DNA from: Candidatus Moraniibacteriota bacterium
Lineage (GTDB): Bacteria; Patescibacteriota; Minisyncoccia; Moranbacterales; UBA1568
NCBI GenBank assembly: GCA_030648835.1
Contig: JAUSGT010000002.1
Coordinates: 373,458-437,457 of the forward strand
Direction of reading: 5' to 3'
Length of the DNA stretch: 64,000 nt
Shown in pieces: positions 1-47,945 of the stretch. The notes below the pieces were generated by a model. The model ran no database searches, was not told where the DNA came from, and was given only the letters and a program-made list of their open reading frames with translations. Each line of letters starts with the position of its first letter. Position 1 is the first letter of the stretch. A program made the position numbers and the translations under genes.

Positions 1-2
1 CC

Positions 3-2018: not shown

Positions 2019-2065
2019 AATCGGGACTCTGATAAAGTAGAGGTATTATTTTTTTACTACTGTTT

Positions 2066-2305
2066 ATGAGTAATCAAGAAAGAATTTATAAGTTATGTTT
2101 TTATTGTGAGCACCCCATTATAGAGAATGACAGATTATCAATTGGCTCTATAACTCATGCAGGACTGAAATATAATATCTCAAAGAGACACAGGGAGAAA
2201 ATAGCCTCAATTACTAATAGCGCAGCTTACGAATCGGATCTTATGCACTTACATTGTTATGATTCCGTTGCGTCAGAATTAGGGTTTGGTAATGGTATGT
2301 ATTGA
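2066..2305 (+). CDS. Small Cys-containing hypothetical protein (79 aa)
   Basis: ORF with CFYC motif. AT-rich island context. Confidence 0.3.
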   Translation: MSNQERIYKLCFYCEHPIIENDRLSIGSITHAGLKYNISKRHREKIASITNSAAYESDLMHLHCYDSVASELGFGNGMY

Positions 2306-2423
2306 AGAGGTTGAGACCACTATGTATATCAAAGGGAATTGTAGTAAATGTCACGAATACGGTAGTCTTGAACCAGACGATTCTTTTCGGAATGGTTTTT
2401 GTGAGGATTTTGATTTATAAAGT

Positions 2424-3230
2424 ATGAAAAAACAATTTACCATATTATCAATTATAGCTTTACTATTTTTGGGGAGCCTTGTTTTCGCTATCCCAACAGT
2501 ATCTTCTGCTGAATGTTGGATTTATGGATCGGCTGCAACGGAGGATTACTTAACGGGAGAGTGTAAATGCAGAGCGGGCTATATTATGAGTGATAGACAC
2601 TGCACAAGTGGGGCTACGGCGTGTCTTCTTAAAAATGGCGGATTTTCAACGTATAATGAATCGAAAGGTTCTTGTGAATGCCTTTTCGGCTATACGCTAG
2701 ATAACACTAATCGATGTGTTAAAAAACAAAATAATGTTTACTTTACATTAGAGGAATTAGATACGGGCAACAAGAAGGCGATAATTAGAAGTAACAGTGA
2801 TTTTAATTACTACTTAGTGATTTATAATACTGGTTGTTATGATCGTTCGTTTGAAAGGTATTTAGGAAAACAGATAGTTATAAATTTAGGAACGGATTAC
2901 TATTTGGATACTTTGGACAAAATAGTGTTACAAGATGACAATGAAACATGTGACATAATAAGTAGAGAAAAAGTTGATTCGAGTACAACTTTAAAAGAAG
3001 AAGGTGTGATAATCAAAAGAAGTTATCCATCAACAGTAGTTCCTGAAATTAAAAGAAAACAGGCTGCCATACCTGATACCAACAACAATCCAACAAAAAA
3101 TTCTTCAGTAGAAACTAATACAAATGAAAGTGGATTTAACCCATTTTTTGTTTTAGTTTTTATAATTCTTAGCGGAGGATTTGTCTGGATAATTTGGAAA
3201 TCAATGAAGAATAACATTGAAAGATTATGA
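2424..3230 (+). CDS. Secreted or surface-anchored Cys-rich protein with EGF-like CxC...C repeats (signal peptide plus C-terminal TM anchor)
   Basis: N-terminal signal peptide MKKQFTILSIIALLFLGSLVFAIPTVSSA. Repeated ECKCRAGY...C and SCECLFGY...C modules. C-terminal hydrophobic helix FFVLVFIILSGGFVWIIW. Stop overlaps the next start (ATGA). Confidence 0.6.
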   Translation: MKKQFTILSIIALLFLGSLVFAIPTVSSAECWIYGSAATEDYLTGECKCRAGYIMSDRHCTSGATACLLKNGGFSTYNESKGSCECLFGYTLDNTNRCVKKQNNVYFTLEELDTGNKKAIIRSNSDFNYYLVIYNTGCYDRSFERYLGKQIVINLGTDYYLDTLDKIVLQDDNETCDIISREKVDSSTTLKEEGVIIKRSYPSTVVPEIKRKQAAIPDTNNNPTKNSSVETNTNESGFNPFFVLVFIILSGGFVWIIWKSMKNNIERL

Positions 3231-4444
3231 AAAATAAAATATTCAGTTTAATCAAAGTTACCTCGCTGGTATTTTTAGTAATATTTATTGCACTAGTTAT
3301 TAATTATGCATTCCAATATTTCTGGATTTCTCCACGCTATTGGGGTGGCACAGTTACGCGATCAAACGAGAAAGTGGCAAATACTACGAAAAACTTTATT
3401 AACCTCTATGGATCTGAAAAATTTGCCGCGCTCAATCCTGCTCAAATCAAAAAAGATTATTCTGCGCTCGGCTATAATCTTTTTCTTGAGATAAGACGAA
3501 GTAATCAGGTTGTCGTACGTACTACCTATGCGATTTCTACTATCTTAGATGACCCAAAGACCCATTATACGATTGATTGTGCAATTCCCGGTGTGGGTGA
3601 AAGCTGCTCTATTTTAATTCTAGAGGATGTTAATTCTAAAGCACGTGATTTTAACGCAAATCATACCAATTGGTTGAAAAACTGGTTTATCGCCCCAAAA
3701 GATAATTTCGAAGATAAATATAATAACATTACATGGCCGTTTTTTGTAGCTTTGAGTAGCTCTTCATTGATTGCGACTATTATTCTTGGTTGGTATTTTT
3801 ATGCTAACAAGAAAAAAAGAATATTTCGGGAAAAAGAAGAAGAAAGTCAGAAACTTGAAGAACATATAATAGAGCTTCATCAGATTTTAAGTAATACAAA
3901 AGAGGAAGCTGAAACGGCGAGAGTTGAACTAGACAGGCTTAATTCAGACACAACAACAAACACACAAGAAAATGAGTCTGAAAAGCAGAGACTGCATGAA
4001 AGGGTTAATGAATTAGAAGCCGAGAAGAAAGAGGTAGATGAGGAGGTATTAGTATTTATTGACATTCGGGCAATAGAGAGAGCTATGCGCAATATAATTC
4101 ACAAAAAACTGTCTCAGAGATACCCCCATGGGAATTATTGGGATGTCGCAATTCCAAATGACATAAGAGAACGACTAAGGGATCGTTTAACTTGGCTTAA
4201 GGAGCAAGACAACAGAAAAAGGATTGATGAAACCTATTTCGGCGAGTGCAGAGATATTATAAGGTACAATTATGGTTTATTTGTGGGTATATTTGGGAGA
4301 AAAGATGACGCAATGTCGTATTTCAGAATACTGATTAATACCAGGAATGCACTAGCTCATGACAGAGAAAACAGTGATTTGAGATATATACCTAACGCCA
4401 TAGAATGGGCAAAAAGAAAACTGGAAATAAACAACGATGCATAG
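3227..4444 (+). CDS. Membrane-anchored (2 TM) coiled-coil protein with a C-terminal DUF4145/HEPN-like domain (Rx4H motif RNALAH). Putative RNase-type effector.
   Basis: TM helices near residues 10-35 and about 165-190. Charged coiled-coil (EEESQKLEEH...ELEAEKKEVDEE). C-terminus IDIRAIERAMRNIIHKKL ... FRILINTRNALAHD matches DUF4145/HEPN signatures. Translationally coupled to the flanking genes. Confidence 0.55.
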   Translation: MKNKIFSLIKVTSLVFLVIFIALVINYAFQYFWISPRYWGGTVTRSNEKVANTTKNFINLYGSEKFAALNPAQIKKDYSALGYNLFLEIRRSNQVVVRTTYAISTILDDPKTHYTIDCAIPGVGESCSILILEDVNSKARDFNANHTNWLKNWFIAPKDNFEDKYNNITWPFFVALSSSSLIATIILGWYFYANKKKRIFREKEEESQKLEEHIIELHQILSNTKEEAETARVELDRLNSDTTTNTQENESEKQRLHERVNELEAEKKEVDEEVLVFIDIRAIERAMRNIIHKKLSQRYPHGNYWDVAIPNDIRERLRDRLTWLKEQDNRKRIDETYFGECRDIIRYNYGLFVGIFGRKDDAMSYFRILINTRNALAHDRENSDLRYIPNAIEWAKRKLEINNDA

Positions 4445-5909
4445 GGAGATACTAACTTTTATGGAAAGTACACTTTTTATTACGCCGAGTAGACCACTTG
4501 ATGAAATAAGCCGGCTTATTGGCAATGGGCTAAAAAAGAACGGCCTTATCGAAAAAGGAAATCCGCGAAGAGCGAATACTCGTTTTAAATTATCTGAGAA
4601 TGATTACTTTGTAGGGTTTTCTTGGTGTTACGAAACTATTCCTGATAGTGTAGTAATCCTTCTGGAAATCTCAAAATACTATGAAGAAGAGGAGAGAAAG
4701 AAGGATACCCCATCTAAGTTAACCAAGCCTGAAATAATCAACTATGCCAAAAGCTTTAAGAAATATATTGAATCTGAACAACTGCCAATATCAGAGGTGA
4801 AAATAAAACAATTTAAATTATCGAAGTCTTTGTCTGTAGAATATGAACTGGGTAATAAAATTGTTTCGCCATCAAAGAGGGGGGCATTGCATAACCCATT
4901 TGAACTTAGAGCGTTGCCGGAATCAATTCGTGTATATTGGCCTGCGGGGTCTCTTAACGAAAGTGATCGGGCGTGTAGAATGCTTGCCGATAGTTTGATA
5001 AGATTCGGCGTTAGGGGGGCAAGAATGTTCCCAGAACTTTATAATAATCAAACGCTACCTTTACCGGATAATGATTCTTTTGAGTGTATAATTATTATTC
5101 CTAATATTGAGGATGAATTAGCAAAGCCACTTATTGTAGAATTAAAGAAACGACCCAGGGGCATACATATATTTGATTTTGATGATAATGGCAATCAATA
5201 CAAATTTGACAATTTGGCCGCTGGTATTTTATATAATAGTGGCAGTGAACTTTGGAGAGTTCATGGTTTGGATCAAAATAACTCCATATATGTTGGTATT
5301 GACTTAGGTCACGACCCCAAACTAAGAAAGTCTAAAATATGTATGACTTTTATTGACAAGAATGGTCGGGAGCTTTCTGAGCATAGGTATATTGCAGAGG
5401 ACTTACCTTTGAATGAAAAACAACAACTGATAGGTATTCTTACTGATAAGTTAGAAAAAATTCAAAAAGAAAATGGATTTGAAAACGTTATTATTCACAA
5501 AGATGGCCGAATTCTGGAAAATCACGATACGCTTTATTACACACTAAAACAAAAATTTGGAAGCGTCTCGCTTATTGAAGTAGTAAAGTCAAATTCAGCC
5601 TTTATTCTAGATCCAGAATCTAAAATGGGTGATATTTTTGATTTTGGAAATTTTATACTTTTACAAACGTTACCATTTAACCACCTTGGGAAATGTACTG
5701 AGCCTATAAAAATTAAGATACTGAAATCCGATTTAGATAGGATGTTTCTTATTGACAATGTATTTAAACTTTCGAAGGCTTTTTGCGGAGATTCATTATA
5801 CGCAGACAAGAAATTACCAATTACAACACATATTGCTGATCGATTCTCATCATTCCAAACAGGTAAGACGTTACAGTCGTTTAATATTGCGAAAAAGTGG
5901 ATAAAATAA
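4437..5909 (+). CDS. Short prokaryotic Argonaute (MID-PIWI, about 480-490 aa). PIWI motifs GIDLGHD, IIHKDGR, IEVVKS and SLYADKK are present.
   Basis: Motif-level match to Argonaute PIWI. GIDLGHD matches the GxDVxH beta-strand that carries the first catalytic Asp. VIIHKDGR matches IHRDGR. SLIEVVKSNSAFIL matches the VEVVKSGN segment. FILLQTLPF...GKCTEP matches FYLxSQ..GTxRP. SLYADKKL matches YYADxxA, which carries the last catalytic residue. A preceding Rossmann-like MID segment (CIIIIPN ... NQYKFDNLAAGILYNSGSELW) is present. An alternative start at 4461 has an AGGGAG RBS. Confidence 0.65.
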   Translation: MHREILTFMESTLFITPSRPLDEISRLIGNGLKKNGLIEKGNPRRANTRFKLSENDYFVGFSWCYETIPDSVVILLEISKYYEEEERKKDTPSKLTKPEIINYAKSFKKYIESEQLPISEVKIKQFKLSKSLSVEYELGNKIVSPSKRGALHNPFELRALPESIRVYWPAGSLNESDRACRMLADSLIRFGVRGARMFPELYNNQTLPLPDNDSFECIIIIPNIEDELAKPLIVELKKRPRGIHIFDFDDNGNQYKFDNLAAGILYNSGSELWRVHGLDQNNSIYVGIDLGHDPKLRKSKICMTFIDKNGRELSEHRYIAEDLPLNEKQQLIGILTDKLEKIQKENGFENVIIHKDGRILENHDTLYYTLKQKFGSVSLIEVVKSNSAFILDPESKMGDIFDFGNFILLQTLPFNHLGKCTEPIKIKILKSDLDRMFLIDNVFKLSKAFCGDSLYADKKLPITTHIADRFSSFQTGKTLQSFNIAKKWIK

Positions 5910-5956
5910 AAATATGAAAAATAAACTTCTCTATTTTGCGGTAAACTTTTAAATAA

Positions 5957-6463
5957 GTGAGACAGAAAAACATGGAAACAAAAGATCCTATTCAAAAAGA
6001 TTCAGGAAAAAAGTGGCCGAAAACACTGCTTAAATATTTGTTTGCCATAATCATCATTTTCGTATTGCTGTTTAGTTTGGTCGGTTCTTACGAAGATCTA
6101 CTTGATGTGTCCTTTTTGGTCTTCGTTCTTGCGGTGATTACCGTTATAGCACTTATAGCCGGGGGTTTGCTGACAGGGTATGAACATGTTAAGCCGATAG
6201 CAGATAAATTTGAGGACGAGAATGTATGGCAGTATATCAGAATGGCGATCATCAGATTATTGATTGGTGGGTTCATAATTTATTGGATGATTGGTGGCGA
6301 GGGATTTCTTAGTCTTGACAGCCTCGAAAATATCGTTCATAATCTTGGGAAATTTTCTCTCTGGATTTTTGCAATATATTTTGTTCTGGCCGGGCTAAAG
6401 AGTCTCTATTGGGTTATTCGAGAAGTAATAAAAAATTTAACGAGTGATGGAGACGAGGATTGA
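5957..6463 (+). CDS. Small 4-TM membrane protein, possibly part of the pAgo module
   Basis: Four hydrophobic helices. Acidic C-terminus. Begins 48 bp downstream of the pAgo gene. Confidence 0.5.
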   Translation: MRQKNMETKDPIQKDSGKKWPKTLLKYLFAIIIIFVLLFSLVGSYEDLLDVSFLVFVLAVITVIALIAGGLLTGYEHVKPIADKFEDENVWQYIRMAIIRLLIGGFIIYWMIGGEGFLSLDSLENIVHNLGKFSLWIFAIYFVLAGLKSLYWVIREVIKNLTSDGDED

Positions 6464-6478
6464 TTTCAAGAGATAAAG

Positions 6479-7420
6479 ATGAACCAGGATAATTTCGTTA
6501 AAATTGAAGGGTGTTTCAGACAAGCTAGAATCACTAGCGAGCTTGCGGATTCTTCGGTTGCAAAATATCGTGATTCAATTAAGAAATTCTTTTCTGTCAT
6601 TGGCAACAAAGATTTTGAATTACTGGTAATCGTTGACTTTGAGAACTTGATTCTAAAAATGCGGGATAATGGTGCGGGTAATTCCAGGATTGCCAACGTA
6701 ATTTCTGCTGTTAAGTGGCTTACTAAAAAACTTCAAGATGGGGGAAAAATACCAAAAACGCTTGATTTAGAGAAGGTAAAAAAACCGAAAATTGAAAGGA
6801 AGGAAGTTGAATATTTGAACGATCAAGAAATAAAAAGGCTCATTGACTGTATTTTAGACGATCTTTCAAAAGGGGAATTCATAAGGAAGGTGAGGATAAT
6901 GGCGCTTGTAGTGTTTTTACTAGAAAGCGGTGCAAGAATTGGCGAAGCCCTTTCAATCAAAATTGAAAAAATTGACTGGGATAACAATGAAATCCCCATT
7001 GTTGGAAAAGGGAAAAAACCGAGAACGTTGTTTTTCAGGGATCGTTCTAAATATTGGTTTCAAAAGTATTTATCCATAAGAAAAAGTGATAGCGAGTTTT
7101 TGTTTGTTACTCTCAGTGGCTTGGCTAAATGGTCACAAACAGACGTAGGGAGATCTTTTAGACGGTATAGGAACTTGTCCGGAATAAAGAAAAAGCTTGT
7201 TTTGCATACACTGAGGCATACTACTGCTACCCAACTATCATTTAAGGGCGCTCAATTTAACGAAATACAAGCCCTTTTGGGTCACGCTCGACTAGAAACC
7301 ACAGTAAAGTATTATATCGGCGCGGCAGGAAAACAGAGGGTCAAGAAAATGATGCAGGATAAATACTATGATTTCATTCCTGAATCAGTGTTGAAAGTTA
7401 ATAAATCAGTGAAGGCATAG
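6479..7420 (+). CDS. Tyrosine-type site-specific recombinase/integrase (XerC/XerD-like)
   Basis: SGARIGEAL (Arg box I). HTLRHTTATQL (HxxR). LLGHARLETTVKYY (catalytic Tyr region). Confidence 0.8.
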   Translation: MNQDNFVKIEGCFRQARITSELADSSVAKYRDSIKKFFSVIGNKDFELLVIVDFENLILKMRDNGAGNSRIANVISAVKWLTKKLQDGGKIPKTLDLEKVKKPKIERKEVEYLNDQEIKRLIDCILDDLSKGEFIRKVRIMALVVFLLESGARIGEALSIKIEKIDWDNNEIPIVGKGKKPRTLFFRDRSKYWFQKYLSIRKSDSEFLFVTLSGLAKWSQTDVGRSFRRYRNLSGIKKKLVLHTLRHTTATQLSFKGAQFNEIQALLGHARLETTVKYYIGAAGKQRVKKMMQDKYYDFIPESVLKVNKSVKA

Positions 7421-7682
7421 TAAATGTCGTCAAAACGTTATTCTTTGGTTTAGCCTCCAAGCTGCCAAATCTGGTCGGGTAGAATACGACAGCGTCCACC
7501 ATAATCTCCAAAGGCTCATCAAAGAGGCTCTTAGGCCTACTAATTGGCGTCTGATGAGCGATGGAGTCACTTATCGCCTTGGGTTTCCTCCAAGGGCGCT
7601 TAAGAGGTGTAGAAGGTGAAGAAGCTCTCCGAAAGCTCGTAGAATTAGAGCAAAAAAAGTTAACTCCTAAAAAGAGGAATTT

Positions 7683-8462
7683 ATGAACGAAAATGCCAAG
7701 GGAAAGATCGAATTTCTTATTCAAGATAACCTACGCGCCATTAAATCGAAACATCCAAAGATCGCGTTGAAGGCAGATCCCAATATTTTAGAACAAGACA
7801 AAAAGAAATCTGCGGAAGAGATCGCGCTTACTCTGCCTTCTCTTCAGAAGCATCTTGATGAATTGTTACCATTTATCCAAAATCTTCGAAAGCATATTCA
7901 GGATATTACTGAACAGACGCATATTTGTGCTGCTTATCTGTTACTTGCTCGTGCTACGCAAGATTGGAAATCGTTACTTTCCTTGGCAGAGAAGGGAGAT
8001 ATCGGCTGTTGGTCATTCATACGTCTAATTAAGGAATCTGTAGCACTCGCAGATCTTTTCGCTTTGGAATCTAGAGGAGATAGTCGTAAGTATATTGAAA
8101 AATGGTTTTCCGGACAGATTATTGGTCATGCAGCCTACAGAGAGGTTCAGACGGAATTCATGCGTCAAGATCCAAGCAACGCAGGTATTGATATAGAAGC
8201 CATGGCCACGGAGCTTTATCAAATGGAGTCTTTGGTAATTCACGCTTCATATAGCACGATGCTAGAGAGCGTAAGTCCATTCACGGAAGATTTTGACTAT
8301 ACAGGCCGTACCCAATATTCTCGTACTAGTAAGGCTTTGGGATATGCTCATGGCACTATGGTAAATATGAATATTGTTCTGAAATCAGTCTATCTTTTCC
8401 TAATCAAAGATAGCAATGCATACGAGGATCTTGATAAGATACTGATTAAATACTCGAGATAG
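7683..8462 (+). CDS. Hypothetical protein (259 aa), first cassette-like unit after the recombinase
   Basis: ORF with an AAGAGGAAT RBS. No recognisable domain. Confidence 0.45.
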   Translation: MNENAKGKIEFLIQDNLRAIKSKHPKIALKADPNILEQDKKKSAEEIALTLPSLQKHLDELLPFIQNLRKHIQDITEQTHICAAYLLLARATQDWKSLLSLAEKGDIGCWSFIRLIKESVALADLFALESRGDSRKYIEKWFSGQIIGHAAYREVQTEFMRQDPSNAGIDIEAMATELYQMESLVIHASYSTMLESVSPFTEDFDYTGRTQYSRTSKALGYAHGTMVNMNIVLKSVYLFLIKDSNAYEDLDKILIKYSR

Positions 8463-8475
8463 ATAGAGACACCAA

Positions 8476-8639
8476 GCTGTCTCATATGGTAAAATAAGAC
8501 AGGGTCTGTCCTGTGTCTCATTTGTCTCGTTTTACCCCCAAAACCGCGACCCGAGAGCCTCAATCCACTCGTCGGCCAAGACCTCCAAGAAATCCCTCAA
8601 CGGCTTGATTTCTCAAAGTTCTAGACCGATGACGCCCGC
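8476..8639. repeat. About 164 bp GC-rich intergenic repeat, copy 1. Contains the hairpin GGTAAAATaAGACA...TGTCTCGTTTTACC.
   Basis: Near-identical to 9891..10054. Its 3' half matches 13986..14080. Confidence 0.85.
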
Positions 8640-8861
8640 AGTGAACGTTAGTGAACGGAGGAGAGGAGGAAGCCAACTGCTTGGCTTCCGTGATGGATGA
8701 GAAAGGCGGAGCGATGTTTCGCGAGTACGCGAAACCGTGAGCCAGGGTCGTGGAAATTTATGAGCGTCGGCGAATAAATTATCCCTGACCGAATCCCTGC
8801 CTCTCTGTAGGCAGGTTTCCCTCTTCGCCAAAATTGAAAATCGGAATCGGAAGCTGAAAAT

Positions 8862-9842
8862 ATGAGTAAGGAAAAGAAATTCGGAATTATCGCTGGAGCA
8901 GTTCTCATTGCTATTGCGGGTCTGTTTATAATGAACCGTGTATTTTTCAACGCACCTCAATCTCAGGAAGAAAAGACAGTTTTTATTATGAATCGTAGTC
9001 AAACCGAAACACAAACATTGGATAAATTAAAAACTCAAGGATTGATTAGAAATAAATGGGCATTTAAGTTGGTTCTATTTCTCAAGCATAACAAAATTGA
9101 GCCTGGCGGTTATACTGTGTCAAAAAGTATGAGCGCTTGGCAAATCGCCAACAAACTTATTTCTGCTCCTGATATGAAATGGGTGGTAATCCCCGAGGGA
9201 CTGCGAAAGGAGCAGATTGGGGAAAAACTGGCGGAGACATTCGATTGGAGTGACGAAGAACTTGGTAAATGGAATACGGAATACACTAAAATGAGGATAG
9301 ATTATATCGAGGGGACGTATTTCCCTGATACCTATCTTATTCCGGTAAATGAAGGCGGATTCAAAATGGCTGAACGAATGACGAGGCGTTTTGATGAAAA
9401 ATTTGCTCCGTATATCAGCCAGTTTGCCCAACAAAATATCCTGTGGACTACTGGGCTCAAATTAGCTTCAATTATCCAGAGAGAAGCCGGGGGGAAAGAC
9501 GATATGCCCCTTATCGCTGGAGTCATGTGGAACAGGCTCGATCAAAATATGAATTTAGAAATAGACGCGACTGTCCAGTATGCACGAGGGAAAGCCGAGG
9601 CTGGCTGGTGGGCACCCGTTACATCTGGAGGTATACAAAGCATCGATTCTCCATACAATACTTACAAAAACAAGGGACTACCTCCCTTTCCTATTTCTAA
9701 TCCAGGGATTGATGCGATTGAAGCGGTCTTACATCCAGTTGAAACTGATTGTCTATACTACCTTCACGACAGCGATCGGCAAATCCACTGCGCTAAGACG
9801 TTTGAAGAACACAAGGAAAATATAGAGAAGTACTTGCGGTAA
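8862..9842 (+). CDS. mltG: Endolytic murein transglycosylase MltG (YceG-like)
   Basis: N-terminal TM. YceG-like motifs (GGYTV, EGLRKEQI, SIIQREAG, GVMWNRL, LEIDATVQY). Confidence 0.75.
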   Translation: MSKEKKFGIIAGAVLIAIAGLFIMNRVFFNAPQSQEEKTVFIMNRSQTETQTLDKLKTQGLIRNKWAFKLVLFLKHNKIEPGGYTVSKSMSAWQIANKLISAPDMKWVVIPEGLRKEQIGEKLAETFDWSDEELGKWNTEYTKMRIDYIEGTYFPDTYLIPVNEGGFKMAERMTRRFDEKFAPYISQFAQQNILWTTGLKLASIIQREAGGKDDMPLIAGVMWNRLDQNMNLEIDATVQYARGKAEAGWWAPVTSGGIQSIDSPYNTYKNKGLPPFPISNPGIDAIEAVLHPVETDCLYYLHDSDRQIHCAKTFEEHKENIEKYLR

Positions 9843-9890
9843 TCACATGAAAATGTACCTCTACGGAAACATCCAAAAGGGAGACATCCC

Positions 9891-10054
9891 GCTGTCCCAT
9901 ATGGTAAAATGAGACAAGGTCTGTCCTGTGTCTCATTTGTCTCGTTTTACCCCCAAAACCGCGACCCGAGAGCCTCAATCCACTCGTCGGCCAAGACCTC
10001 CAAGAAATCCCTCAACGGCTTGATTTCTCAAAGTTCTAGACCGATGACGCCCGC
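9891..10054. repeat. About 164 bp GC-rich intergenic repeat, copy 2
   Basis: Near-identical to 8476..8639 (a few substitutions). Confidence 0.85.
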
Positions 10055-10301
10055 TAAGATTATTTTTCACCCTTCTGGGTGTAAAATAGGCTTTGTTGAT
10101 TGGAAGGATGAGAAGGGCGTGAGTCGGATGCGAACAAGCGAGCATCCTGTGTGTAGCGCCCAGGCTCCGAGTCGGAGCGAGGAGGAATCCCTCCTTCTCC
10201 GCCCTCGCTCGCCGAAGCGAACCTTCGGCGTGACGAAGTCCGCTGTAGATACGTGAAAGTTTTCGAGGTTCCGGTTGATGATCTTTTGAAGAAATAAAAC
10301 T

Positions 10302-11288
10302 ATGAAAAAATTAATTGTACATAAAGTAAATATTTCTCATCAGCGTCTTGTTGAACTATCTAAACTAGCCGATCAGGCAAAGCCTTTTTACGATTGGGTT
10401 GAAAAGGTAGCAAAAAAAGTTACTGGATCGCACAGAAGTTTGAACGAGATAATTTTTCAGTCATCAAAAAAAGAAATTCATACCATAATTAAAAGTTGTT
10501 ATTCCAATGGAGCGGAAACAAAACCTTTTTTGTTTGATGGCGTTGGTAGAGTTTATCCTCACTTTAAGGCTTGTTTTTACTTTTTTGCTTGGATAGTTCG
10601 AGACGCTCCACAACAAAGACTTTCCCCCTTAATTAGTCGTATGCAAAAAGCCGACAAGGTTTCTAAAATTACGGCGGAAACAGATGCGCTTGTAAAATTA
10701 ATTTTTGAATACAAATCTGTAGTAAAAAGTTTTGAATGGCAAGCTGTGCGAGAAGTGATAATTGATAGGTTGGAGGGGTCTAGGCGAAGTATTCGCGGAC
10801 ATGCTTTAGAGGCGAGCGCGCGAACAAGCTTGGTTACCGCTATTCAAAATTATTATTCAATTCACGGAGATTACGGGAAATTTAAGAAAGTTGAAATTGC
10901 TGATAAGCAGATAAAAATAGGTAGGCACACTGTAGACGTTTCCGCTTTGCTCTATCCTAAAAATGAATCAGTTCCTATTCGACTGCTTATCCCAATAAAG
11001 ACAAGGGAGACCGAAGGCGGTGGTCATTCTCATATCTTCACTAGAGATGTAATTTCCGCGATTACTGATATTAAAGCCGAAAAGAAAAAAGATCATATTA
11101 TAGTTGTGATTGTTGCCGAAAATTGGTCTCCAAGAGAAATCCAGACAATAGATGATGCGATTGATTTGATTTTTCATTTCAATATGAGTCCGAATGCATT
11201 TGAGGGCTTTGACGAGAGCGCTCAAGTTACATTGAATCAGTATATTGAAAAAATATTTAGCGAATATGAAAAGCAAGCACGAAAATAA
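10302..11288 (+). CDS. Hypothetical protein, putative restriction endonuclease partner of the downstream methyltransferase
   Basis: Overlaps the MTase gene by 44 nt in the same operon. No nuclease motif could be confirmed by eye. Confidence 0.35.
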   Translation: MKKLIVHKVNISHQRLVELSKLADQAKPFYDWVEKVAKKVTGSHRSLNEIIFQSSKKEIHTIIKSCYSNGAETKPFLFDGVGRVYPHFKACFYFFAWIVRDAPQQRLSPLISRMQKADKVSKITAETDALVKLIFEYKSVVKSFEWQAVREVIIDRLEGSRRSIRGHALEASARTSLVTAIQNYYSIHGDYGKFKKVEIADKQIKIGRHTVDVSALLYPKNESVPIRLLIPIKTRETEGGGHSHIFTRDVISAITDIKAEKKKDHIIVVIVAENWSPREIQTIDDAIDLIFHFNMSPNAFEGFDESAQVTLNQYIEKIFSEYEKQARK

Positions 11289-12150
11289 AATACTACTTGG
11301 TGATGTACGGGAAGTGATAAAAATCTTTCCCGATCTGCACTTTCAAGCTATTATCACTAGCCCGCCATATTTTGGTCATAGAAAATATTCAGAAAAAAGT
11401 TCTAGTGGCGAGGTGGGTCGGGAATCAAACCCAGAACAGTATATTGAGAATATTAGGCAAATTTTCAACGGGCTTAGGCCAAAATTAAAAGACAATGGAT
11501 TATTGTGGTTAAACCTTGGCGATACCTACAGAGAGAAAACCCTACTTGGTATTCCGTGGCGGACTGCTCTGGCTTTGCAATCTGACGGCTGGATACTCCG
11601 AAGTGATATTATTTGGCGAAAAACAAATGCTATGCCGTCGTCCATCAAAGATCGACCTACTACTGATCATGAGTATGTATTTATGTTTTCCAAAACTCCA
11701 GAATATCTTTATTACGCGGACGCAATTAGAGAGCCACATGTTACGTTTTCTGATAAATCCAAAATGAAGGGTGGAAGAAATCATTTTGGGAAACGAGACG
11801 GTACACCGGAAAACGGAAAGAATGGCGGCAACTCAAATCTTCACAATGGAAGGTGGGATCAAGCTTTTCACCCAAATGGAAGGAATAAAAGAACTGTTTG
11901 GGATATTTCTCTAGGCAAGTTTAGAGATACGCATTTTGCGGTTTATCCTGAAAAGCTTGTAGAAACTTGTATTCTTGCATCTACAAAAGAGGGCGATTTG
12001 GTTTTTGACCCATTTATGGGTTCTGGTACAACAGCATTGGTGGCGTGTAAGCTAGGGAGAAATTTTACTGGTGTTGAGTTAGTCGAAAAATATAAAGACA
12101 TGGCGGAAAAAAGAGTCTCGCCTTATCTTAAACAAGCAAAATTAGTATGA
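11245..12150 (+). CDS. DNA methyltransferase, beta-class N4-cytosine/N6-adenine (motif IV SPPY before motif I FMGSGTT)
   Basis: IITSPPYFG (D/S-PPY). DPFMGSGTTALVA (FxGxG SAM-binding motif) near the C-terminus. Confidence 0.85.
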   Translation: MKKYLANMKSKHENKILLGDVREVIKIFPDLHFQAIITSPPYFGHRKYSEKSSSGEVGRESNPEQYIENIRQIFNGLRPKLKDNGLLWLNLGDTYREKTLLGIPWRTALALQSDGWILRSDIIWRKTNAMPSSIKDRPTTDHEYVFMFSKTPEYLYYADAIREPHVTFSDKSKMKGGRNHFGKRDGTPENGKNGGNSNLHNGRWDQAFHPNGRNKRTVWDISLGKFRDTHFAVYPEKLVETCILASTKEGDLVFDPFMGSGTTALVACKLGRNFTGVELVEKYKDMAEKRVSPYLKQAKLV

Positions 12151-13208
12151 ATGAAAGACAACAGATAATCAAAGAAATTGAGGATTTGCGAGGTTCGCGC
12201 GTTATAACCTACATAACGAGCGATAGACCCGGAATAATCTCAATGATTGATCCAATGGATTTACGAGAGATTTTTGATCATCTGAAAGATATCCCCAAAG
12301 ATACAAAAATTGATTTATACATTTACAGTCGCGGTGGAAATTCCGTAACTGCGTGGGCTCTCGTAAATCTTATTCGCGAACACACTAAAGATTTTAATGT
12401 TCTTGTACCTTATCGCGCACACAGTTGTGCTACTGCTATTGCAATTGGGTCAAATGAAATAGTTATGGGACGAATGGGAGAGTTAGGACCAATAGACCCA
12501 ACACTTTCTGCAATAGTTGATAATAAAAAAGTTGATGTCTCAACCGAAGATTTATCTAGCTACATTGCTTTTTTGAAAGAAAAGTTTGGTATCAATCGTC
12601 AAAAGCATACGATTCAAGCATTTAGCCAACTTGCCGAAAACGTAAAACCTCTTTTGCTTGGTAGAGCGTACCGCTCGTATCTCAAAGCAACTGATGACGC
12701 GATAAAACTTTTGCGACTACATTTGAGTGACGAAAGGAAAATCAAAAGCATTGCTGAACATCTTGTTGAGAAACTTTATGCCCACGATCATATTATCTCT
12801 CGTAGGGAAGCTAAAGAAAAAATTGGCCTGAACGTTCTTTGCGCTGAAGGAGATTTGGAAAAGAAAATGTGGGAGTTATACCTCAAATACGAGGATATGC
12901 TAAAATTAAAAGAACCATACAAGGATGAACCAACGACAGGAAACGATCCAAGAATTTTGCCGGTTACTGTCGTTGAAAGTATAACTATGACTAGCAAAAA
13001 GAACGTTCGACAATTCATTAAGGAAGTCAGCTTGCCACAGCAAAATATGGCGGCGATGCCTGTTATTGTTGGTGATAAGCCCGCGCTCATGTTCCCAAAC
13101 GGACAAGCTATTCAGATTGTAACAGAGGGGCAAACTGTTGTTTTAGATCAGAAGTTTTTTGCTAAAACGGAAACTATAGTTTGGGAACAAGAGGTAGTAA
13201 CGGAATAA
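12147..13208 (+). CDS. ClpP/SppA-superfamily (S14/S49-like) serine peptidase with a C-terminal extension
   Basis: IDLYIYSRGGNSVTAWALVNLIRE ... YRAHSCATAIAIGSNEIVMG aligns with the ClpP core (DIYLYINSPGG ... GQAASMG). ATGA overlap with the MTase stop. Confidence 0.5.
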   Translation: MNERQQIIKEIEDLRGSRVITYITSDRPGIISMIDPMDLREIFDHLKDIPKDTKIDLYIYSRGGNSVTAWALVNLIREHTKDFNVLVPYRAHSCATAIAIGSNEIVMGRMGELGPIDPTLSAIVDNKKVDVSTEDLSSYIAFLKEKFGINRQKHTIQAFSQLAENVKPLLLGRAYRSYLKATDDAIKLLRLHLSDERKIKSIAEHLVEKLYAHDHIISRREAKEKIGLNVLCAEGDLEKKMWELYLKYEDMLKLKEPYKDEPTTGNDPRILPVTVVESITMTSKKNVRQFIKEVSLPQQNMAAMPVIVGDKPALMFPNGQAIQIVTEGQTVVLDQKFFAKTETIVWEQEVVTE

Positions 13209-13598
13209 TGCGCGTAGCGATTTCCCTGCGGTCTTGCCGCAGGAACCACTAAGGAAAGTTTGAAAACCTTGGTTTTCAAGTTAGACTATAGTGGCAAAGC
13301 CTCGGGTCATACCCTGTGGTCTTGGCATAGGGTTGTTGATTTTTGTTGCTTGAAATTCGCCAAAAGAAAACAGCGGAGCAAATGGAAAATTCCTCCCCAA
13401 ACCCCTCCTCCTCCGCTTGCGACATCCGAATTCAAAAACAAATGAGCGTACGAGGCAGTCTCGAGCCACCACGCGCTCCGTGCGTGCGATTAGTCGGCAT
13501 CATGGTTGCTTTCAAAATACATTCGAACTTTGTATAATACACACCGCATCAAACTCATAGTATCGAGTAGACTTGAGCTTTAATAATAAGAAAACAAT

Positions 13599-13985
13599 AT
13601 GGGAGAGTTTATTGCATTTTTAAGTTTTCTAGGTACTAACATACAGGCACTAAGTTTTTTAGTTGTGGTGGTTGGAGGAGTTTTTGCTTGGGTAAAATTT
13701 AGAGAGTACGTAAAAGATAAGAGATTTACAACTTACCATAATTTGATAGATCAGCTTGTAGATGATAAAAGCCATCCAAGTGGAAAGTTGATGTTGGATA
13801 GACAAATTGCAATTGTTTTTGAACTTAGAAGTTTTCCTAAATATTATAAAGTTACTCAGAGAATTCTAGAGGGACTTAAGAATGAAGAAACCTGGAAGAC
13901 TGGAAATCCAAGACTTGTTGAAGAAGTCGATCTAACTTTAGAATATATAAACTCAAATATATTCTGCCGATTGTTTAAGAGATAA
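13599..13985 (+). CDS. Small membrane protein (128 aa), hypothetical
   Basis: N-terminal hydrophobic segment. A consensus TATAAT box about 60 bp upstream. Confidence 0.4.
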   Translation: MGEFIAFLSFLGTNIQALSFLVVVVGGVFAWVKFREYVKDKRFTTYHNLIDQLVDDKSHPSGKLMLDRQIAIVFELRSFPKYYKVTQRILEGLKNEETWKTGNPRLVEEVDLTLEYINSNIFCRLFKR

Positions 13986-14080
13986 TGCGACCCGACCTTT
14001 CCAATCCGTTCGTCGGCCAAGACCCCTAAGAAATCCCTCAACGGCTTGATTTCTCAAAGTTCTAGACCGATGACGCCTGC
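13986..14080. repeat. Partial (3' half) copy of the 164 bp repeat, copy 3
   Basis: Matches the 3' roughly 95 bp of the copies at 8476 and 9891 with a few substitutions. Confidence 0.8.
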
Positions 14081-14109
14081 ACCGAGTATTAAGTATCGGA
14101 TATACCCAT

Positions 14110-14721
14110 ATGGATGATTTCGAGCTATCGGAAGTTAAAGAATTAATAGAACTCGTTCGTCTTAAAGTCGATGATGGGTTTTGGATGGTTCAATACCTAC
14201 GACTCCAATCAGTCTATATATATTTTCAATATGCAGTAGTACAGACAAGAATTCAAGAAGAAAATTTAAAGTTAATGGAGAATGGGGAACATAAGAACTT
14301 CCCTGCACATGAAGCATATGCTGAGAGTGATTTAAGGATTTATTCATCAGCTTTGTCGACATATGCCTACATGCGTACGTGTCTTCATATCACTTATGAG
14401 TTAGCTGAAGCTATACCTAATGATGAAGAACTTAAAAAATATAGAGAAGAGAATAAGGCATGGGGAAAGGATTTAATAGATAAGAGAGATAAGCTGCAGG
14501 CTCATCCGTACAATGAATGTGCATTAGTCTGGAAAAGAACTATGCGAAGCAGTGATGGGAGAATAGAATTTCCGATTAGGAACTTGGTCGATTTATCTAA
14601 GAGTGAAAAAATAATGATTTGGCCTAGGAAAAACCTTGAAGAGGTGCGAATATATTTACAAACCATTTCTATCCACCTAAAAAGGTTATATGGTAATTTT
14701 GTCTCGAGCGTTTCAAAATGA
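14110..14721 (+). CDS. Hypothetical protein (203 aa), last gene of the AT-rich island
   Basis: ORF. No recognisable domain. Confidence 0.4.
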   Translation: MDDFELSEVKELIELVRLKVDDGFWMVQYLRLQSVYIYFQYAVVQTRIQEENLKLMENGEHKNFPAHEAYAESDLRIYSSALSTYAYMRTCLHITYELAEAIPNDEELKKYREENKAWGKDLIDKRDKLQAHPYNECALVWKRTMRSSDGRIEFPIRNLVDLSKSEKIMIWPRKNLEEVRIYLQTISIHLKRLYGNFVSSVSK

Positions 14722-14725
14722 TAGT

Positions 14726-14768
14726 GGAGACACTCTTCAAAAAGCCTTAATGAGAGTGTCATTTTTGA
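14726..14768 (+). terminator. Rho-independent terminator (GGAGACACTCT...AGAGTGTC plus T-run)
   Basis: 8 bp stem, 16 nt loop, ATTTTTG tail immediately after the stop at 14721. Confidence 0.6.
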
Positions 14769-14812
14769 TAGTGCTCAAATCCGAATAACTTGCAGTAAAC
14801 ATTTTTACCGTT

Positions 14813-26981: not shown

Positions 26982-27347
26982 ATGAAAAAAATATTCAAGG
27001 GATTTACCCTCATTGAACTCCTCATCGTTATCGCCATTATTGGCATTCTCGCCTCTATCGTATTGGTAAGTCTTTCGGGTGCTCGGACAAAAGCTCAAAA
27101 GGCCGCGTTCAAGGCAGAGGTATCGAGCGCTGTTTCGGGATTTACTCTCCAGTGTGATACAGATGATCCGACAGCTCAACCAGATACTACCGTGACTAAT
27201 TGGGATGATGCTTTTGCTGCTACCCCGGATTGCGGGTCGACAGGGGCTGGAACATTCTCAATTGGTGCGGCTCCGGTAGCCACTATCGCTGGCTGTACTG
27301 CCGCGACCGTGACTGAAACAGGTGCTGATTTTACGAGTTGTCCATAA
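26982..27347 (+). CDS. Type IV pilin (prepilin; class III signal [21 protein letters not shown])
   Basis: Canonical G|FTLIEL N-methylation motif. Strong RBS AAGGAGGTGA. Confidence 0.85.
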
Positions 27348-27411: not shown

Positions 27412-27795
27412 ATGAAAAAAACACTTAAGGGCTTTACCCTTATAGAACTTCTCATCGTTATTGCCATCATCGGTATTTTGGCATCCATCGTATTAGTGAG
27501 TTTGAGCAGCGCGCGTAGTAAAGCAAATGTCGCTGCGTTTAAGGCAGAAGCTGCCGGTTCGGTAGCTGGATTTATTATTGCGTGTGATACAGATGCGGCA
27601 ACATTAACAGCTTCAGCGGCATCTGCAACCTCGGCGAGTTCAAATGTTACGTTTGCTATAACTGCCTCGCCATGTGGTCCTACCGGAACTGGATTATTCA
27701 CGGGGACGGCAGCTCCGAAAAAAACTCTTTCGGTAACGTGTACTCCGACAGCTATTTCGTCAACCGGAGTCACATTCCCCAGTACCTGTATCTAG
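27412..27795 (+). CDS. Type IV pilin, second paralogue
   Basis: [25 protein letters not shown] at 27412 preferred (RBS GGGGAGGTG) over the ORF-track start at 27388. Confidence 0.8.
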
Positions 27796-28758: not shown

Positions 28759-29247
28759 ATGAAAATTCCAAAATTGAAATTGTTTTCCGGTTTTACCATT
28801 ATTGAACTTCTCGTCGTTATTGCCATCATCAGTATCATCACTGTCGTCTTATTGCTCAGTTTCGGGGATAGTCGGGTCAAGAAGGAGCTGGAAACGAACG
28901 CCAATGAGTTCGCTGGGGTGGTGCGCGAAGCACAGAATTATGCTCTTACGGGAAAACAGGCCGGAGGGGGTACCGTGTGCGCTTTCTCCGTGACTTGGAC
29001 AACTCCGTCAACGTATAGCTTGGGGTATACCGCGTCTGGAAGTTGCGCGACAGCACCCACTTCTCTTGTCAGTTATTCTCTCAAAAATGGAGTAATCTTC
29101 AGCAATTCTGGAGCGGTTTCTTTCAAGTCACCGTGGGCGGAGGTCACAACAGGCGATGTGCAAGTAAATTTTTCCCGATCGGGAAATACCCACTCTGTCT
29201 GTGTCAATGCGGAGGGAAAGATATCCGAAGGGATAACCTGTCCATAA
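28759..29247 (+). CDS. Pilin-like (minor pilin/pseudopilin) protein
   Basis: SGFTIIELLVVIAIISI prepilin leader. Confidence 0.7.
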   Translation: MKIPKLKLFSGFTIIELLVVIAIISIITVVLLLSFGDSRVKKELETNANEFAGVVREAQNYALTGKQAGGGTVCAFSVTWTTPSTYSLGYTASGSCATAPTSLVSYSLKNGVIFSNSGAVSFKSPWAEVTTGDVQVNFSRSGNTHSVCVNAEGKISEGITCP

Positions 29248-47857: not shown

Positions 47858-47945
47858 GTCGTGTATAGTGTATCAAGTATTATGTATCATGTATGGGGTT
47901 TGCTTAATACCTAATACTTTATACATGATACTTTTCAAACAAAAA
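47858..47945. repeat. AT-rich palindromic word spacer S2a (GTATCATGTA / TACATGATAC words)
   Basis: Shares words in direct orientation with 51405..51530. Confidence 0.6.

What the first reader, a model, noticed from the sequence alone, without database searches (positions are those of the whole stretch)
6479..14770. Tyrosine recombinase followed by a cassette-like array punctuated by a conserved roughly 164 bp repeat (integron-like organisation)
Downstream of the recombinase, gene units (7683..8462; mltG; the R-M-protease operon; the 128 aa membrane protein; 14110..14721) are separated by a conserved GC-rich repeat, with full copies at 8476..8639 and 9891..10054 and a 3' half copy at 13986..14080. 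The array ends at a strong terminator at 14726. A repeat at each unit boundary resembles attC-type recombination sites or a MITE that seeds cassette boundaries. However, the recombinase is co-oriented with the units rather than divergent, the repeats show no obvious R''/L''-L'/R' symmetry, and one unit is the housekeeping gene mltG.
Basis: partly seen in the sequence, partly recalled or inferred. Interest (0 to 1): 0.6.

Follow-up and report, generated by a model that had tools for sequence, protein, structure and literature searches.

The report
Conserved boundary repeat, not an integron
The repeat is real and belongs to an undescribed ~178-bp intergenic element of Moranbacteria-like candidate-phyla bacteria, whose 3' end is a recurrent DNA breakpoint interchangeable with the 3' end of tRNA-Ser genes; it is not an integron and the neighbouring recombinase is not demonstrably its partner.

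Summary
There are two full copies (8466-8643 and 9881-10057, 97% identical) and one 3' part copy (13986-14083), each directly after a co-oriented gene.

The integron reading fails on its defining features:
- The recombinase is Xer-like, not IntI.
- No attC core motifs occur in or near any copy.
- Homologous recombinases elsewhere have no copy of the element within up to 10 kb.
- 25 other loci carrying the element have no tyrosine recombinase, and none of about 40 flanking ORFs matches a recombinase or transposase family.
- mltG is vertically inherited, and copy B sits at an ancestral position.

The element (E) is absent from Rfam. It has two modules:
- A 5' promoter-like module with GAGACA/TGTCTC repeats.
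- A 97-nt 3' module whose bottom strand forms a long imperfect hairpin and which ends sharply at GCCCGC.

In relatives, identical DNA follows either E or a tRNA-Ser gene from exactly this end. This includes a 2.45-kb two-gene unit at 99.6% identity in two contexts. Related genomes hold different genes between E copies, and the window carries tRNA-Ser 3'-end fragments.

Best reading (about 0.45): E is an attachment-type junction module with an outward promoter. Inserted DNA accretes at it, catalysed in trans. Rival readings are a MITE-like selfish repeat and a regulatory RNA.

The parts
6479..7420 (+). Xer-like tyrosine recombinase (313 aa). Its link to the repeat is not conserved.
   Evidence: Pfam Phage_integrase 3e-30. 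Best NCBIfam hit XerA 162 bits (cutoff 220); IntI TIGR02249 64 bits (cutoff 265), C-terminus only. PDB best hits XerA, XerC-like and XerD. More than 230 homologues in Patescibacteria. Five other genomic contexts lack the element.
7430..7650 (+). Remnant of the 3' end of a gene that is intact just upstream of mltG in relative L037
   Evidence: 84% identity to L037 9748-9883; alignment.
7683..8462 (+). 259-aa ORF of unknown function. Together with copy A and varA it is an insertion or replacement relative to L037, L038 and L040.
   Evidence: No Pfam, NCBIfam or PADLOC hit. Absent from the orthologous loci.
8466..8546 (+). Element copy A, 5' module: GAGACA-N6-TGTCTC palindrome, -35-like GAGACA, 18-nt spacer, TGGTAAAAT extended -10, then TGTCTCATTTGTCTC
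   Evidence: Promoter scan hit 8466-8495 with TG extension. The -10 variants in other loci keep T1, A2 and T6.
8547..8643 (+). Element copy A, 3' module: CGACCCGAG ... imperfect hairpin ... GTTCTAGACCGATGACGCCCGC, with a sharp 3' end
   Evidence: Alignments; folding.
8644..8861 (+). varA: GC-rich palindromic modules including GGATGAGAAAGGCG. It replaces the native mltG promoter region.
   Evidence: Homologous, with compensatory hairpin changes read by eye from the alignment, to DNA after the element in L014 and L025.
8862..9842 (+). mltG (YceG), a native housekeeping gene
   Evidence: Pfam YceG 4e-70. Smooth 91-66% identity series in Moranbacteria. Orthologous loci L037-L041.
9881..10057 (+). 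Element copy B (full), at an ancestral position downstream of mltG
   Evidence: A diverged full-length element lies at the same place in L037 (11015-11197) and L040/L041.
10058..10301 (+). varB: GGATGAGAAGGGCG module ending in a tRNA-Ser 3'-end-like sequence (10185-10202), then a palindromic module ending TGACGAAGTCCGC (10204-10243)
   Evidence: Weak RtT hit, E = 0.044. Exact 18-nt tRNA-Ser 3'-end motif against 0.19 expected. The same module follows the tRNA-Ser gene of L018.
10302..13208 (+). Type II restriction enzyme, N6/N4 methyltransferase and ClpP-like SDH protease: accessory unit
   Evidence: PADLOC REase_II 3e-84 and MTase_II 5e-90. Pfam SDH_protease. Absent from the orthologous region of L037.
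13209..13598 (+). Mosaic spacer: terminator-like hairpin 13311-13333, tRNA-Ser 3'-end-like fragment 13399-13416, and a ...CACCGC|ATCAAACTCATAGTATCGAG junction at 13544-13572
13599..13985 (+). 128-aa predicted membrane protein. Its homologues elsewhere are not flanked by the element.
13986..14083 (+). Element copy C: 3' module only, of a different sequence subtype from copies A and B
   Evidence: It starts at GCGACCCGA directly after the stop codon.
14110..14770 (+). 203-aa ORF followed by a terminator-like hairpin (14726-14770)

Best explanation
The repeat is one member of a family of about 178-bp, strand-specific intergenic elements ('E') found in Moranbacteria-like Patescibacteria. It has two modules.

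The 5' module (about 80 bp) is a sigma-70-type promoter that reads outward into the next gene. It is overlaid by five GAGACA/TGTCTC hexamers, which probably bind a protein.

The 3' module (about 97 bp) begins at CGACCCGAG, contains a long imperfect hairpin that pairs better on the strand opposite the genes, and ends abruptly at GTTCTAGACC-N7-GCCCGC. This 3' end acts as an attachment-type recombination junction:
- Foreign or relocated DNA joins exactly after ...CCGC, the same position used at the 3' end of tRNA-Ser genes.
- An inserted unit can carry its own copy of the 3' module at its far end.
- Repeated events therefore leave gene units punctuated by full and part copies.

Applied to the window:
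- Copy B is the resident, ancestral copy after mltG.
- The RM-protease-128aa block ending in the foreign-type part copy C is inserted DNA.
- Copy A, 97% identical to copy B, is a recent duplicate that arrived with the 259-aa ORF and now supplies mltG with a promoter.

The enzyme acts in trans and is not identified. The adjacent Xer-like recombinase is a candidate only by proximity.

Shown: the anatomy, the conservation, the breakpoints, the synteny and the absence of integron features. Inferred: promoter activity, site-specific recombination as the cause of the breakpoints, and use of the folded bottom strand.
For: 1. Distribution. There are 30 copies in 26 sequences, all with the same sharp 3' end. 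Part copies all start at (C)GACCCGA directly after a stop codon.

2. Breakpoints.
- L023 and L025 share 2,450 nt at 99.6% identity.
- The right end of that segment is the element's GCCCGC.
- The left end is the 3' end of tRNA-Ser in L023 and the end of a diverged element in L025.
- In L003 the same 31 nt follow both its tRNA-Ser gene and its element.
- The L024 element is followed by the same ~85-nt trailer as the L023 tRNA-Ser gene.
- More CCGC|ATCAAGC..TATCGAG junctions occur in L006, L014 and at window 13544.

3. Variable content between copies at one locus in related genomes:
- L014, L015, L024 and L025 downstream of the same ATPase-cupredoxin pair.
- L003 and L024 with different inserts between a full and a part copy, upstream of the same FAD-binding gene.

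4. The pattern 'full copy, insert, part copy' recurs in the window, L003 and L024.

5. The window holds tRNA-Ser 3'-end fragments: 2 found against 0.19 expected.

6. Copy B is syntenic with diverged elements in L037 and L040. These keep the hexamers, CGACCCGAG, GTTCYAGAC and GCCCGC.

7. Promoter.
- The geometry is conserved, with an extended -10.
- The native mltG promoter region is replaced by copy A plus varA.

8. Strand asymmetry of the hairpin.
- 94% of cells pair on the bottom strand against 79% on the top.
- DNA folding gives -17.3 kcal/mol (z = -2.5) against -9.2 (z = -0.2).

9. The element is non-coding: indels are not multiples of three. No Rfam family matches.
Against: - No recombinase or transposase is linked to the element in any of 25 loci, so the catalyst is unknown.
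- True compensatory changes in the hairpin are almost absent within the main family: 1 pair, and the shuffle control is not significant. The structure rests on wobble-compatible one-sided changes and on one A-T to G-C swap in the diverged subfamily.
- Many copies sit alone between ordinary genes with no obvious inserted unit.
- Homologues of the 128-aa gene occur elsewhere without the element.
- The left junction of the copy-A insertion does not follow a CCGC-ending site.
- No circular or empty-site forms were seen.
- Part of the breakpoint pattern could come from homologous or illegitimate recombination among repeated intergenic modules.
Confidence: 0.45

Rival explanations
1. Selfish miniature repeat (MITE-, ERIC- or REP-like). 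Under this reading the 97-nt module, and the promoter-bearing long form, is itself a non-autonomous mobile element. It inserts between a stop codon and the terminator, or after ...CCGC targets, and is moved by an enzyme encoded elsewhere. The 'cassettes' would simply be whatever genes lie between insertions.
For: - Both ends of the 97-nt module are sharp.
- Identity of 90% or more between loci whose flanking genes are only about 68% identical at the DNA level.
- Many solitary copies sit between ordinary genes such as MscL, an ABC permease, NUDIX, a cupredoxin and mltG.
- Other small modules are shared across genomes in the same spacers, including a 41-nt palindromic unit that starts after CCGC and ends in CCGC.
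- The hairpin-rich architecture and strand specificity recall ssDNA-mobilised repeats.
Against: - There are no terminal inverted repeats and no target-site duplication.
- Only 1-3 copies per 8-64 kb were sampled, and the exact-word scan found hits on only one or two contigs per MAG (16 loci in 14 MAGs).
- It does not explain why a 2.45-kb two-gene segment is bounded by the element's end on one side and by a tRNA-Ser or element end on the other.
- Copy B and the L037/L040 copies are orthologous, so the element is not freshly inserted.
- No HUH or DDE transposase lies nearby.
Confidence: 0.22
2. Functional RNA or regulatory leader. Under this reading the element is a promoter plus a conserved transcribed segment, either a small RNA ending at GCCCGC like a tRNA or a 5'/3' UTR element. 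It would be conserved for an RNA-level or transcription-control role. Rearrangements around it would be a by-product of repeated homology.
For: - Promoter-like 5' module with an operator-like palindrome.
- Read by eye from the alignment, intrinsic terminator-like hairpins follow within 10-50 nt in L012, L018, L023, L011 and L037.
- The element occupies the same slot as a tRNA-Ser gene in front of an identical trailer and terminator.
- Strict co-orientation with flanking genes.
- Very strong sequence conservation.
- It supplies mltG with a promoter in the window.
Against: - On the transcribed (+) strand the consensus fold is poor: 9 pairs at -4.3 kcal/mol for the 3' module, and -10.2 against -19.4 for the whole element. 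The hairpin would carry four consecutive A.C mismatches.
- No conserved promoter exists for the strand that folds well.
- Part copies lack the promoter.
- No Rfam family matches, even at E up to 10.
- Downstream genes share no theme.
- It does not by itself explain the precise breakpoints.
Confidence: 0.2
3. A true integron. Under this reading the recombinase at 6479 is the integron integrase, the repeats are attC sites, and the units are mobile cassettes captured at an attI.
For: - A tyrosine recombinase lies upstream of an array of co-oriented units separated by a conserved repeat.
- The bottom strand of the repeat folds better.
- A promoter-like motif reads into the units.
Against: - The IntI model scores 64 bits against a cutoff of 265 and matches only the last ~60 residues. 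The best matches are XerA, XerC and XerD.
- There are no RYYYAAC/GTTRRRY motifs.
- The repeat sequence is conserved where attC sites are conserved mainly in structure.
- The recombinase-repeat linkage is absent in five other contexts holding recombinase homologues and in 25 loci holding the repeat.
- mltG is native, and copy B is ancestral.
Confidence: 0.03

Closest known systems
Integron attI/attC sites with the Pc promoter
   Same: - A site sits at the 3' end of each gene unit, directly after the stop codon.
- The breakpoint is at the 3' edge of the site.
- The bottom strand forms the better imperfect hairpin.
- A promoter-bearing long form stands at the head of units.
- Content varies between relatives.
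   Different: - There is no IntI and no R''/R' core motifs.
- The site is conserved in sequence.
- No integrase is linked.
- Copies are mostly solitary.
- A housekeeping gene lies between two copies.
- The same breakpoint is used at tRNA-Ser genes.
Tandem accretion of integrative elements at tRNA-gene att sites (for example ICE/CIME accretion; integration at the 3' end of tRNA genes)
   Same: - The arrangement is a full copy, then inserted DNA, then a part copy of the 3' portion.
- Junctions coincide with the 3' end of tRNA-Ser genes.
- tRNA 3'-end fragments are scattered in the array.
- Some islands lack their own integrase.
   Different: - The repeated site is not a tRNA gene but a separate 178-bp element with its own promoter-like module.
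- Identity between the tRNA end and the element end is only about 13 of 23 nt plus the shared CCGC.
- Inserts can be as small as about 0.6 kb.
- No integrase was found in any unit.
Promoter-carrying intergenic repeats: Neisseria Correia elements and enterobacterial ERIC/IRU (from general knowledge, not tested here)
   Same: - They are 100-180-bp conserved imperfect-hairpin repeats in transcribed intergenic DNA.
- They can donate promoters.
- Long and short forms exist.
   Different: - The element here has no terminal inverted repeats or TA duplication.
- Copy number is low.
- It lies in a single orientation relative to genes.
- Its 3' end is sharp and coincides with rearrangement breakpoints.
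E. coli tyrT distal repeats / RtT RNA (Rfam RF00391)
   Same: - The spacers next to the element (varA, varB) are repeat modules that end in a tRNA 3'-end-like sequence.
- varB gives a weak RtT match (25 bits, E = 0.044).
   Different: - The match is below the gathering score of 45.
- It concerns the flanking modules, not the 178-bp element itself.
- The tRNA and the phylum are different.

Membership tests
Integron | IntI-type integrase carrying the integron-specific additional domain | tested here: not met
   TIGR02249 scores 64 bits against a cutoff of 265, in two short stretches of which the best covers residues 221-278; PRK15417 scores 39 against 435. In the PDB, IntI4 aligns only to residues 219-278, while XerA, XerC-like and XerD align along the protein.
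Integron | attC sites with inverse core RYYYAAC and core GTTRRRY at the ends of an imperfect palindrome | tested here: not met
   A regex search on both strands of all three copies plus or minus 20-30 nt found no match.
Integron | The recombinogenic bottom strand folds into an imperfect hairpin | tested here: inconclusive
   The bottom strand pairs in 94% of cells against 79% for the top, and folds at -17.3 against -9.2 kcal/mol. Only one compensatory pair was found and the shuffle control is not significant.
Integron | Integrase gene physically linked to the array (intI-attI-cassettes) | tested here: not met
   There is no element copy within the flanks fetched (up to 10 kb) around recombinase homologues in five other genomic contexts, nine loci in all. 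There is no tyrosine recombinase in 25 loci with the element. In the window the gene is co-oriented and separated from copy A by another ORF.
Integron | Cassettes are mobile units that travel together with their site | tested here: inconclusive
   For: a 2.45-kb unit ending in the site occurs in two contexts. Against: homologues of the 128-aa gene lack the site, and mltG is native.
tRNA-gene-targeted integrative island (att duplication) | Inserted DNA is bounded by an intact target and a direct repeat of its 3' part | tested here: met
   Window copy B (full) to copy C (3' part), and likewise in L003 and L024.
tRNA-gene-targeted integrative island (att duplication) | The junction lies in or at the 3' end of a tRNA gene | tested here: met
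   This holds in relatives: the tRNA-Ser 3' end is interchangeable with the element end. The window itself has only tRNA-Ser 3'-end fragments.
tRNA-gene-targeted integrative island (att duplication) | Integrase encoded inside the island next to an att site | tested here: not met
   There is no recombinase in the B-C unit or in any unit of 25 loci. The window recombinase lies upstream of copy A, but that linkage is not conserved.
MITE / ERIC / Correia-type repeat | Terminal inverted repeats and a target-site duplication | tested here: not met
   The ends are GAGACA... and ...GCCCGC. The flanks show no duplication.
MITE / ERIC / Correia-type repeat | Many dispersed copies per genome | not testable with these tools
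   Only 64 kb of the source genome is held. The exact-word scan of one genome per species found hits on one or two contigs per MAG, 16 loci in 14 MAGs.
XerC/D chromosome dimer resolution system | Recombinase reaches the family score and acts at a dif site in the replication terminus | tested here: inconclusive
   The XerA, XerD and XerC models are the best hits but fall below their cutoffs (162 against 220; 124 against 330; 123 against 335). GC skew is monotonic across the window, so no terminus lies here. Homologues sit in variable, defence-rich DNA.
Any Rfam RNA family | Covariance-model match at or near the gathering score | tested here: not met
   Nothing overlaps the element at the gathering score or at E up to 10 in 8300-10400. 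Nothing overlaps it at E up to 1 in six loci.

The most novel reading that the evidence does not exclude
The element defines an integron-like but integrase-unlinked gene-capture platform in Patescibacteria. Under this reading it is a sequence-conserved attachment site that recombines as a folded bottom strand, mimics the 3' end and trailer of tRNA-Ser genes, and brings its own promoter. An unlinked, possibly Xer-type, recombinase or DNA taken up by natural competence would then stack and express foreign genes, including defence systems, next to housekeeping genes in these tiny genomes.
Probability: 0.2. Interest if true: 0.8.

Novelty: new variant of a known kind. Interest (0 to 1): 0.55.

Why it matters
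Candidate-phyla bacteria have very small genomes, few recognisable mobile elements and no genetic tools, yet they carry variable defence islands. A short, sequence-conserved element would give a concrete, searchable handle on how these organisms gain and express foreign DNA if three things hold: it marks where DNA is swapped in and out, it behaves like the 3' end of a tRNA-Ser gene, and it supplies a promoter to whatever lies downstream. It would also provide a candidate landing site and promoter for future engineering. If instead it is a selfish repeat or a regulatory RNA, it is still an unannotated, strongly conserved non-coding family absent from Rfam. Either way, annotators should not call such arrays integrons.

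Tried and rejected
- Known RNA families. Rfam at gathering and permissive thresholds, plus ARAGORN, on the window and 22 loci found only tRNAs and a weak RtT hit in the flanking spacer.
- Protein-coding reading. An ORF runs through the element in several loci, but the start codon is not conserved and indels of 1 or 2 nt occur. Rejected.
- tRNA-like fold of the 3' module. No acceptor or T-arm pairing and no tRNA model hit. Rejected. Only the last ~23 nt resemble a tRNA 3' end in register.
- Phage or plasmid origin. No match in viral contigs, the INPHARED phage collection or PLSDB plasmids.
- Conserved neighbouring protein. All-against-all blastp of 204 flanking ORFs and Pfam on about 40 of them found no recurrent family, recombinase or transposase.
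- Cognate recombinase. The contexts of five homologous recombinases contain no copy of the element.
- Cassette test with the 128-aa gene. Its homologues are not flanked by the element.
- Extra copies or motif clusters near 59.8-61.6 kb. The weak blast and motif hits lie inside genes on the other strand and are chance.
- Walking beyond the window start to find the left edge of the low-GC island. The protein was not on record.
- Covariation with the diverged subfamily. MAFFT misaligned the hairpin, so the alifold counts there are not usable.

Full report
**1. The observation**

The repeat is real.
- The repeat finder returns a 174-nt family at 8466, 9881 (97%) and 13907.
- Alignment and blastn place the limits at 8466-8643 (copy A), 9881-10057 (copy B) and 13986-14083 (copy C). 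Copy C holds the 3' part only and is about 89% identical.
- No other copy exists in the 64 kb.
- All three copies follow a co-oriented ORF, with the stop codon 3, 38 and 0-2 nt away.
  - tyrosine recombinase at 6479-7420;
  - MltG at 8862-9842;
  - type II restriction enzyme, methyltransferase and ClpP-like SDH protease at 10302-13208;
  - small ORFs at 13599 and 14110.
- The window comes from a Candidatus Moranbacteria MAG.

**2. It is not an integron**
- The recombinase scores 64 bits against the IntI model (cutoff 265), in two short stretches of which the best covers its last ~60 residues. Its best matches are the XerA, XerD and XerC models and structures.
- No RYYYAAC/GTTRRRY core occurs on either strand in or near any copy.
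- The recombinase belongs to a large Patescibacteria family, with more than 230 homologues at E of 1e-20 or better; the 120 best share 49-91% identity with it.
- In five other genomic contexts (nine fetched loci) these homologues sit among variable, often defence-related genes. None has a copy of the repeat within the flank fetched, at most 10 kb.
- Conversely, 25 loci that carry the repeat contain no tyrosine recombinase.
- None of about 40 flanking ORFs matches a recombinase or transposase family.
- MltG shows the smooth identity series of a vertically inherited gene.

**3. What the repeat is**

Exact-word scans found the repeat in 16 genome loci and 9 metagenome loci, nearly all Patescibacteria. 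Several carry doubtful 'Bdellovibrionales' labels. A profile search gives 30 copies in 26 sequences. I call the element E. It has two modules.

*The 5' module*
- It starts with GAGACA-N6-TGTCTC.
- It continues with TGnTAnnnT, whose variants TAAAAT, TATATT, TAGAAT and TAAACT keep the key -10 positions.
- It then has GAGACA...TGTCTCATTTGTCTC.
- The scan calls this a promoter with a TG extension in both full window copies.

*The 3' module*
- It starts at CGACCCGAG and ends sharply at GTTCTAGACCGATGACGCCCGC. Beyond that point every locus differs.
- Several copies, like window copy C, consist of the 3' module only and begin right after a stop codon.

*Other properties*
- Indels of 1-2 nt show that E is non-coding.
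- No Rfam family matches.
- E is absent from the phage, plasmid and viral collections.

**4. Strand and structure**
- The 3' module contains a hairpin of about 25 bp.
- On the strand opposite the genes, 94% of cells form standard pairs. On the gene strand only 79% do, because five positions are G.T on one strand and A.C on the other.
- Consensus folding gives -15.4 against -4.3 kcal/mol.
- Single-strand DNA folding gives -17.3 (z = -2.5) against -9.2 (z = -0.2).
- One arm is almost invariant, so true compensatory changes are nearly absent and the shuffle control is not significant.
- The diverged subfamily adds one A-T to G-C swap, which I read from the alignment.
- The structure is therefore suggestive, not proven.

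**5. The 3' end is a recurrent breakpoint equivalent to a tRNA-Ser 3' end**

This is the key result.
- L023 and L025 share 2,450 nt at 99.6% identity. The segment holds two ORFs plus a part copy of E.
- The shared segment ends exactly at GCCCGC.
- It begins, in L023, exactly at the 3' end of a tRNA-Ser gene (..CTCTTCCGC|ACAAAGCTCG..).
- It begins, in L025, at the end of a diverged full element (..GTGGCCCGC|ACAAAGCTCG..).
- L024's canonical E is followed by the same ~85-nt trailer and terminator.
- In L003 the same 31 nt follow both its tRNA-Ser gene and its E.
- The module after L018's tRNA-Ser gene also follows E in L009 and L027, and closes window varB.
- Further CCGC|ATCAAGC..TATCGAG junctions occur in L006, in L014 and at window 13544-13572.
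- The window has two tRNA-Ser 3'-end-like fragments, at 10185-10202 (exact) and 13399-13416, against 0.19 expected.

**6. Variable content between copies**
- Four related genomes share a P-type ATPase and a cupredoxin gene upstream, but differ in what lies between these and E:
  - nothing (L014);
  - a cation-efflux gene (L015);
  - an M23 peptidase gene (L024);
  - a diverged E plus the 2.45-kb unit (L025).
- L003 and L024 hold different small inserts between a full copy and a part copy, upstream of the same FAD-binding gene.

**7. History of the window locus**
- In relatives L037 (MltG 89% identical) and L040/L041 (85%), mltG is followed at the same position by a diverged full-length E. It keeps the hexamers, CGACCCGAG, GTTCYAGAC and GCCCGC. 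Copy B is therefore ancestral.
- Copy C is of a different sequence subtype. It closes a block (RM, protease, 128-aa ORF) that is absent from L037. This fits inserted DNA that brought its own 3' module.
- Upstream, window 7430-7650 matches the DNA just before mltG in L037.
- The mltG promoter region conserved in L037, L038 and L040 is replaced in the window by the 259-aa ORF, copy A and varA, up to about 15 nt before the ATG.
- Copy A is thus a recent duplicate that probably now drives mltG.
- Upstream of mltG is a defence hot spot in the relatives too.

**8. Interpretation**

The data fit best an attachment-type junction module with an outward promoter, at which DNA accretes by recombination catalysed in trans (confidence about 0.45).
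- It works like an integron or tRNA-att platform but is a member of neither.
- The main rival is a MITE-like selfish repeat (0.22). It explains the sharp 97-nt unit and the solitary copies, but not the 2.45-kb unit bounded by element and tRNA ends.
- The second rival is a functional RNA or leader (0.20). It explains the promoter, the terminators and the tRNA-like slot, but not the poor fold on the transcribed strand or the breakpoints.
- Evidence against a strict cassette system: homologues of the 128-aa gene occur without E, and no enzyme is linked.

**9. Limits**
- Only 64 kb of the source genome and 8-20-kb flanks of relatives could be read.
- Collection scans required exact 21-mers, which biases the sample toward the conserved form.
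- No reads were available to look for circles or empty sites.

Noticed in passing
window 3227-5909: A short prokaryotic Argonaute (4437-5909; PADLOC pAgo/PprPIWI about 1e-20, NCBIfam argonaute 1e-12) overlaps by 8 nt an upstream 405-aa partner (PDC-M34B-like, 1e-10). Both lie in DNA that is about 35% GC over window 1-6000, rising to about 39% by 8000, against 46-48% for most of the window.
   Followed up: partly
window 8695-8708 and 10106-10119 (varA, varB); L009, L011, L012, L014, L023, L025: GC-rich 'GGATGAGAARGSCG' modules follow the element in several genomes. They are built of perfect hairpins. By eye they show compensatory changes between genomes, start like a tRNA-Ser 5' end and end like its 3' end. 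varB gives a weak RtT RNA match (25 bits, E = 0.044).
   Followed up: partly
window 10185-10202 and 13399-13416: tRNA-Ser 3'-end-like fragments (GAATCCCTCCTTCTCCGC exact, and a version with 2 mismatches) occur with no tRNA gene present. Only 0.19 are expected by chance.
   Followed up: yes
window 10204-10243; L018 3730-3770; L009; L027: A ~41-nt palindromic module (CTTCG...CGGCGTGACGAAGTCCGC) starts right after a ...CCGC end and itself ends in CCGC. It is found after a tRNA-Ser gene and after copies of the element.
   Followed up: partly
L036 7813-8039, 11580-11727, 13492-13537: In a genome with a 69%-identical recombinase, the gene units downstream of it (SNF2 helicase, radical SAM) are separated by a different conserved repeat of about 108 nt plus a terminator-like 46-mer. 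This is the same layout with a different repeat.
   Followed up: partly
L028 299-367 and 1200-1268; window 3090-3238: A conserved ~70-150-nt upstream module that includes the start codon precedes different genes in the 91%-identical recombinase locus and in the window.
   Followed up: no
L037 1-9941; L040 1-9848: The region upstream of mltG is a defence-island hot spot in Moranbacteria relatives. L037 has a type IIG RM, DUF4365 and an FtsK-like gene. L040 has a type I RM, a reverse transcriptase and a KAP NTPase.
   Followed up: partly
window 12147-13208: A ClpP-like SDH-family serine protease gene overlaps the end of the type II methyltransferase gene by 4 nt, which suggests one operon with the RM system.
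   Followed up: no
window 27000-27073, 27430-27503, 28789-28862: Three type IV pilin-like N-terminal segments (GFTLIELL...) occur in tandemly arranged genes.
   Followed up: no
window 47863-47902 and 51434-51473: A 40-nt GTAT-rich direct repeat (73% identical), spaced 3.6 kb apart.
   Followed up: no
L004, L007, L009, L010, L012-L015, L017, L018: The record titles call these MAGs 'Bdellovibrionales' or 'Gammaproteobacteria'. However, L012 shares synteny and 68% DNA identity with the ClpB region of the Moranbacteria window, and several others share the element and neighbouring genes. The labels look wrong.
   Followed up: partly
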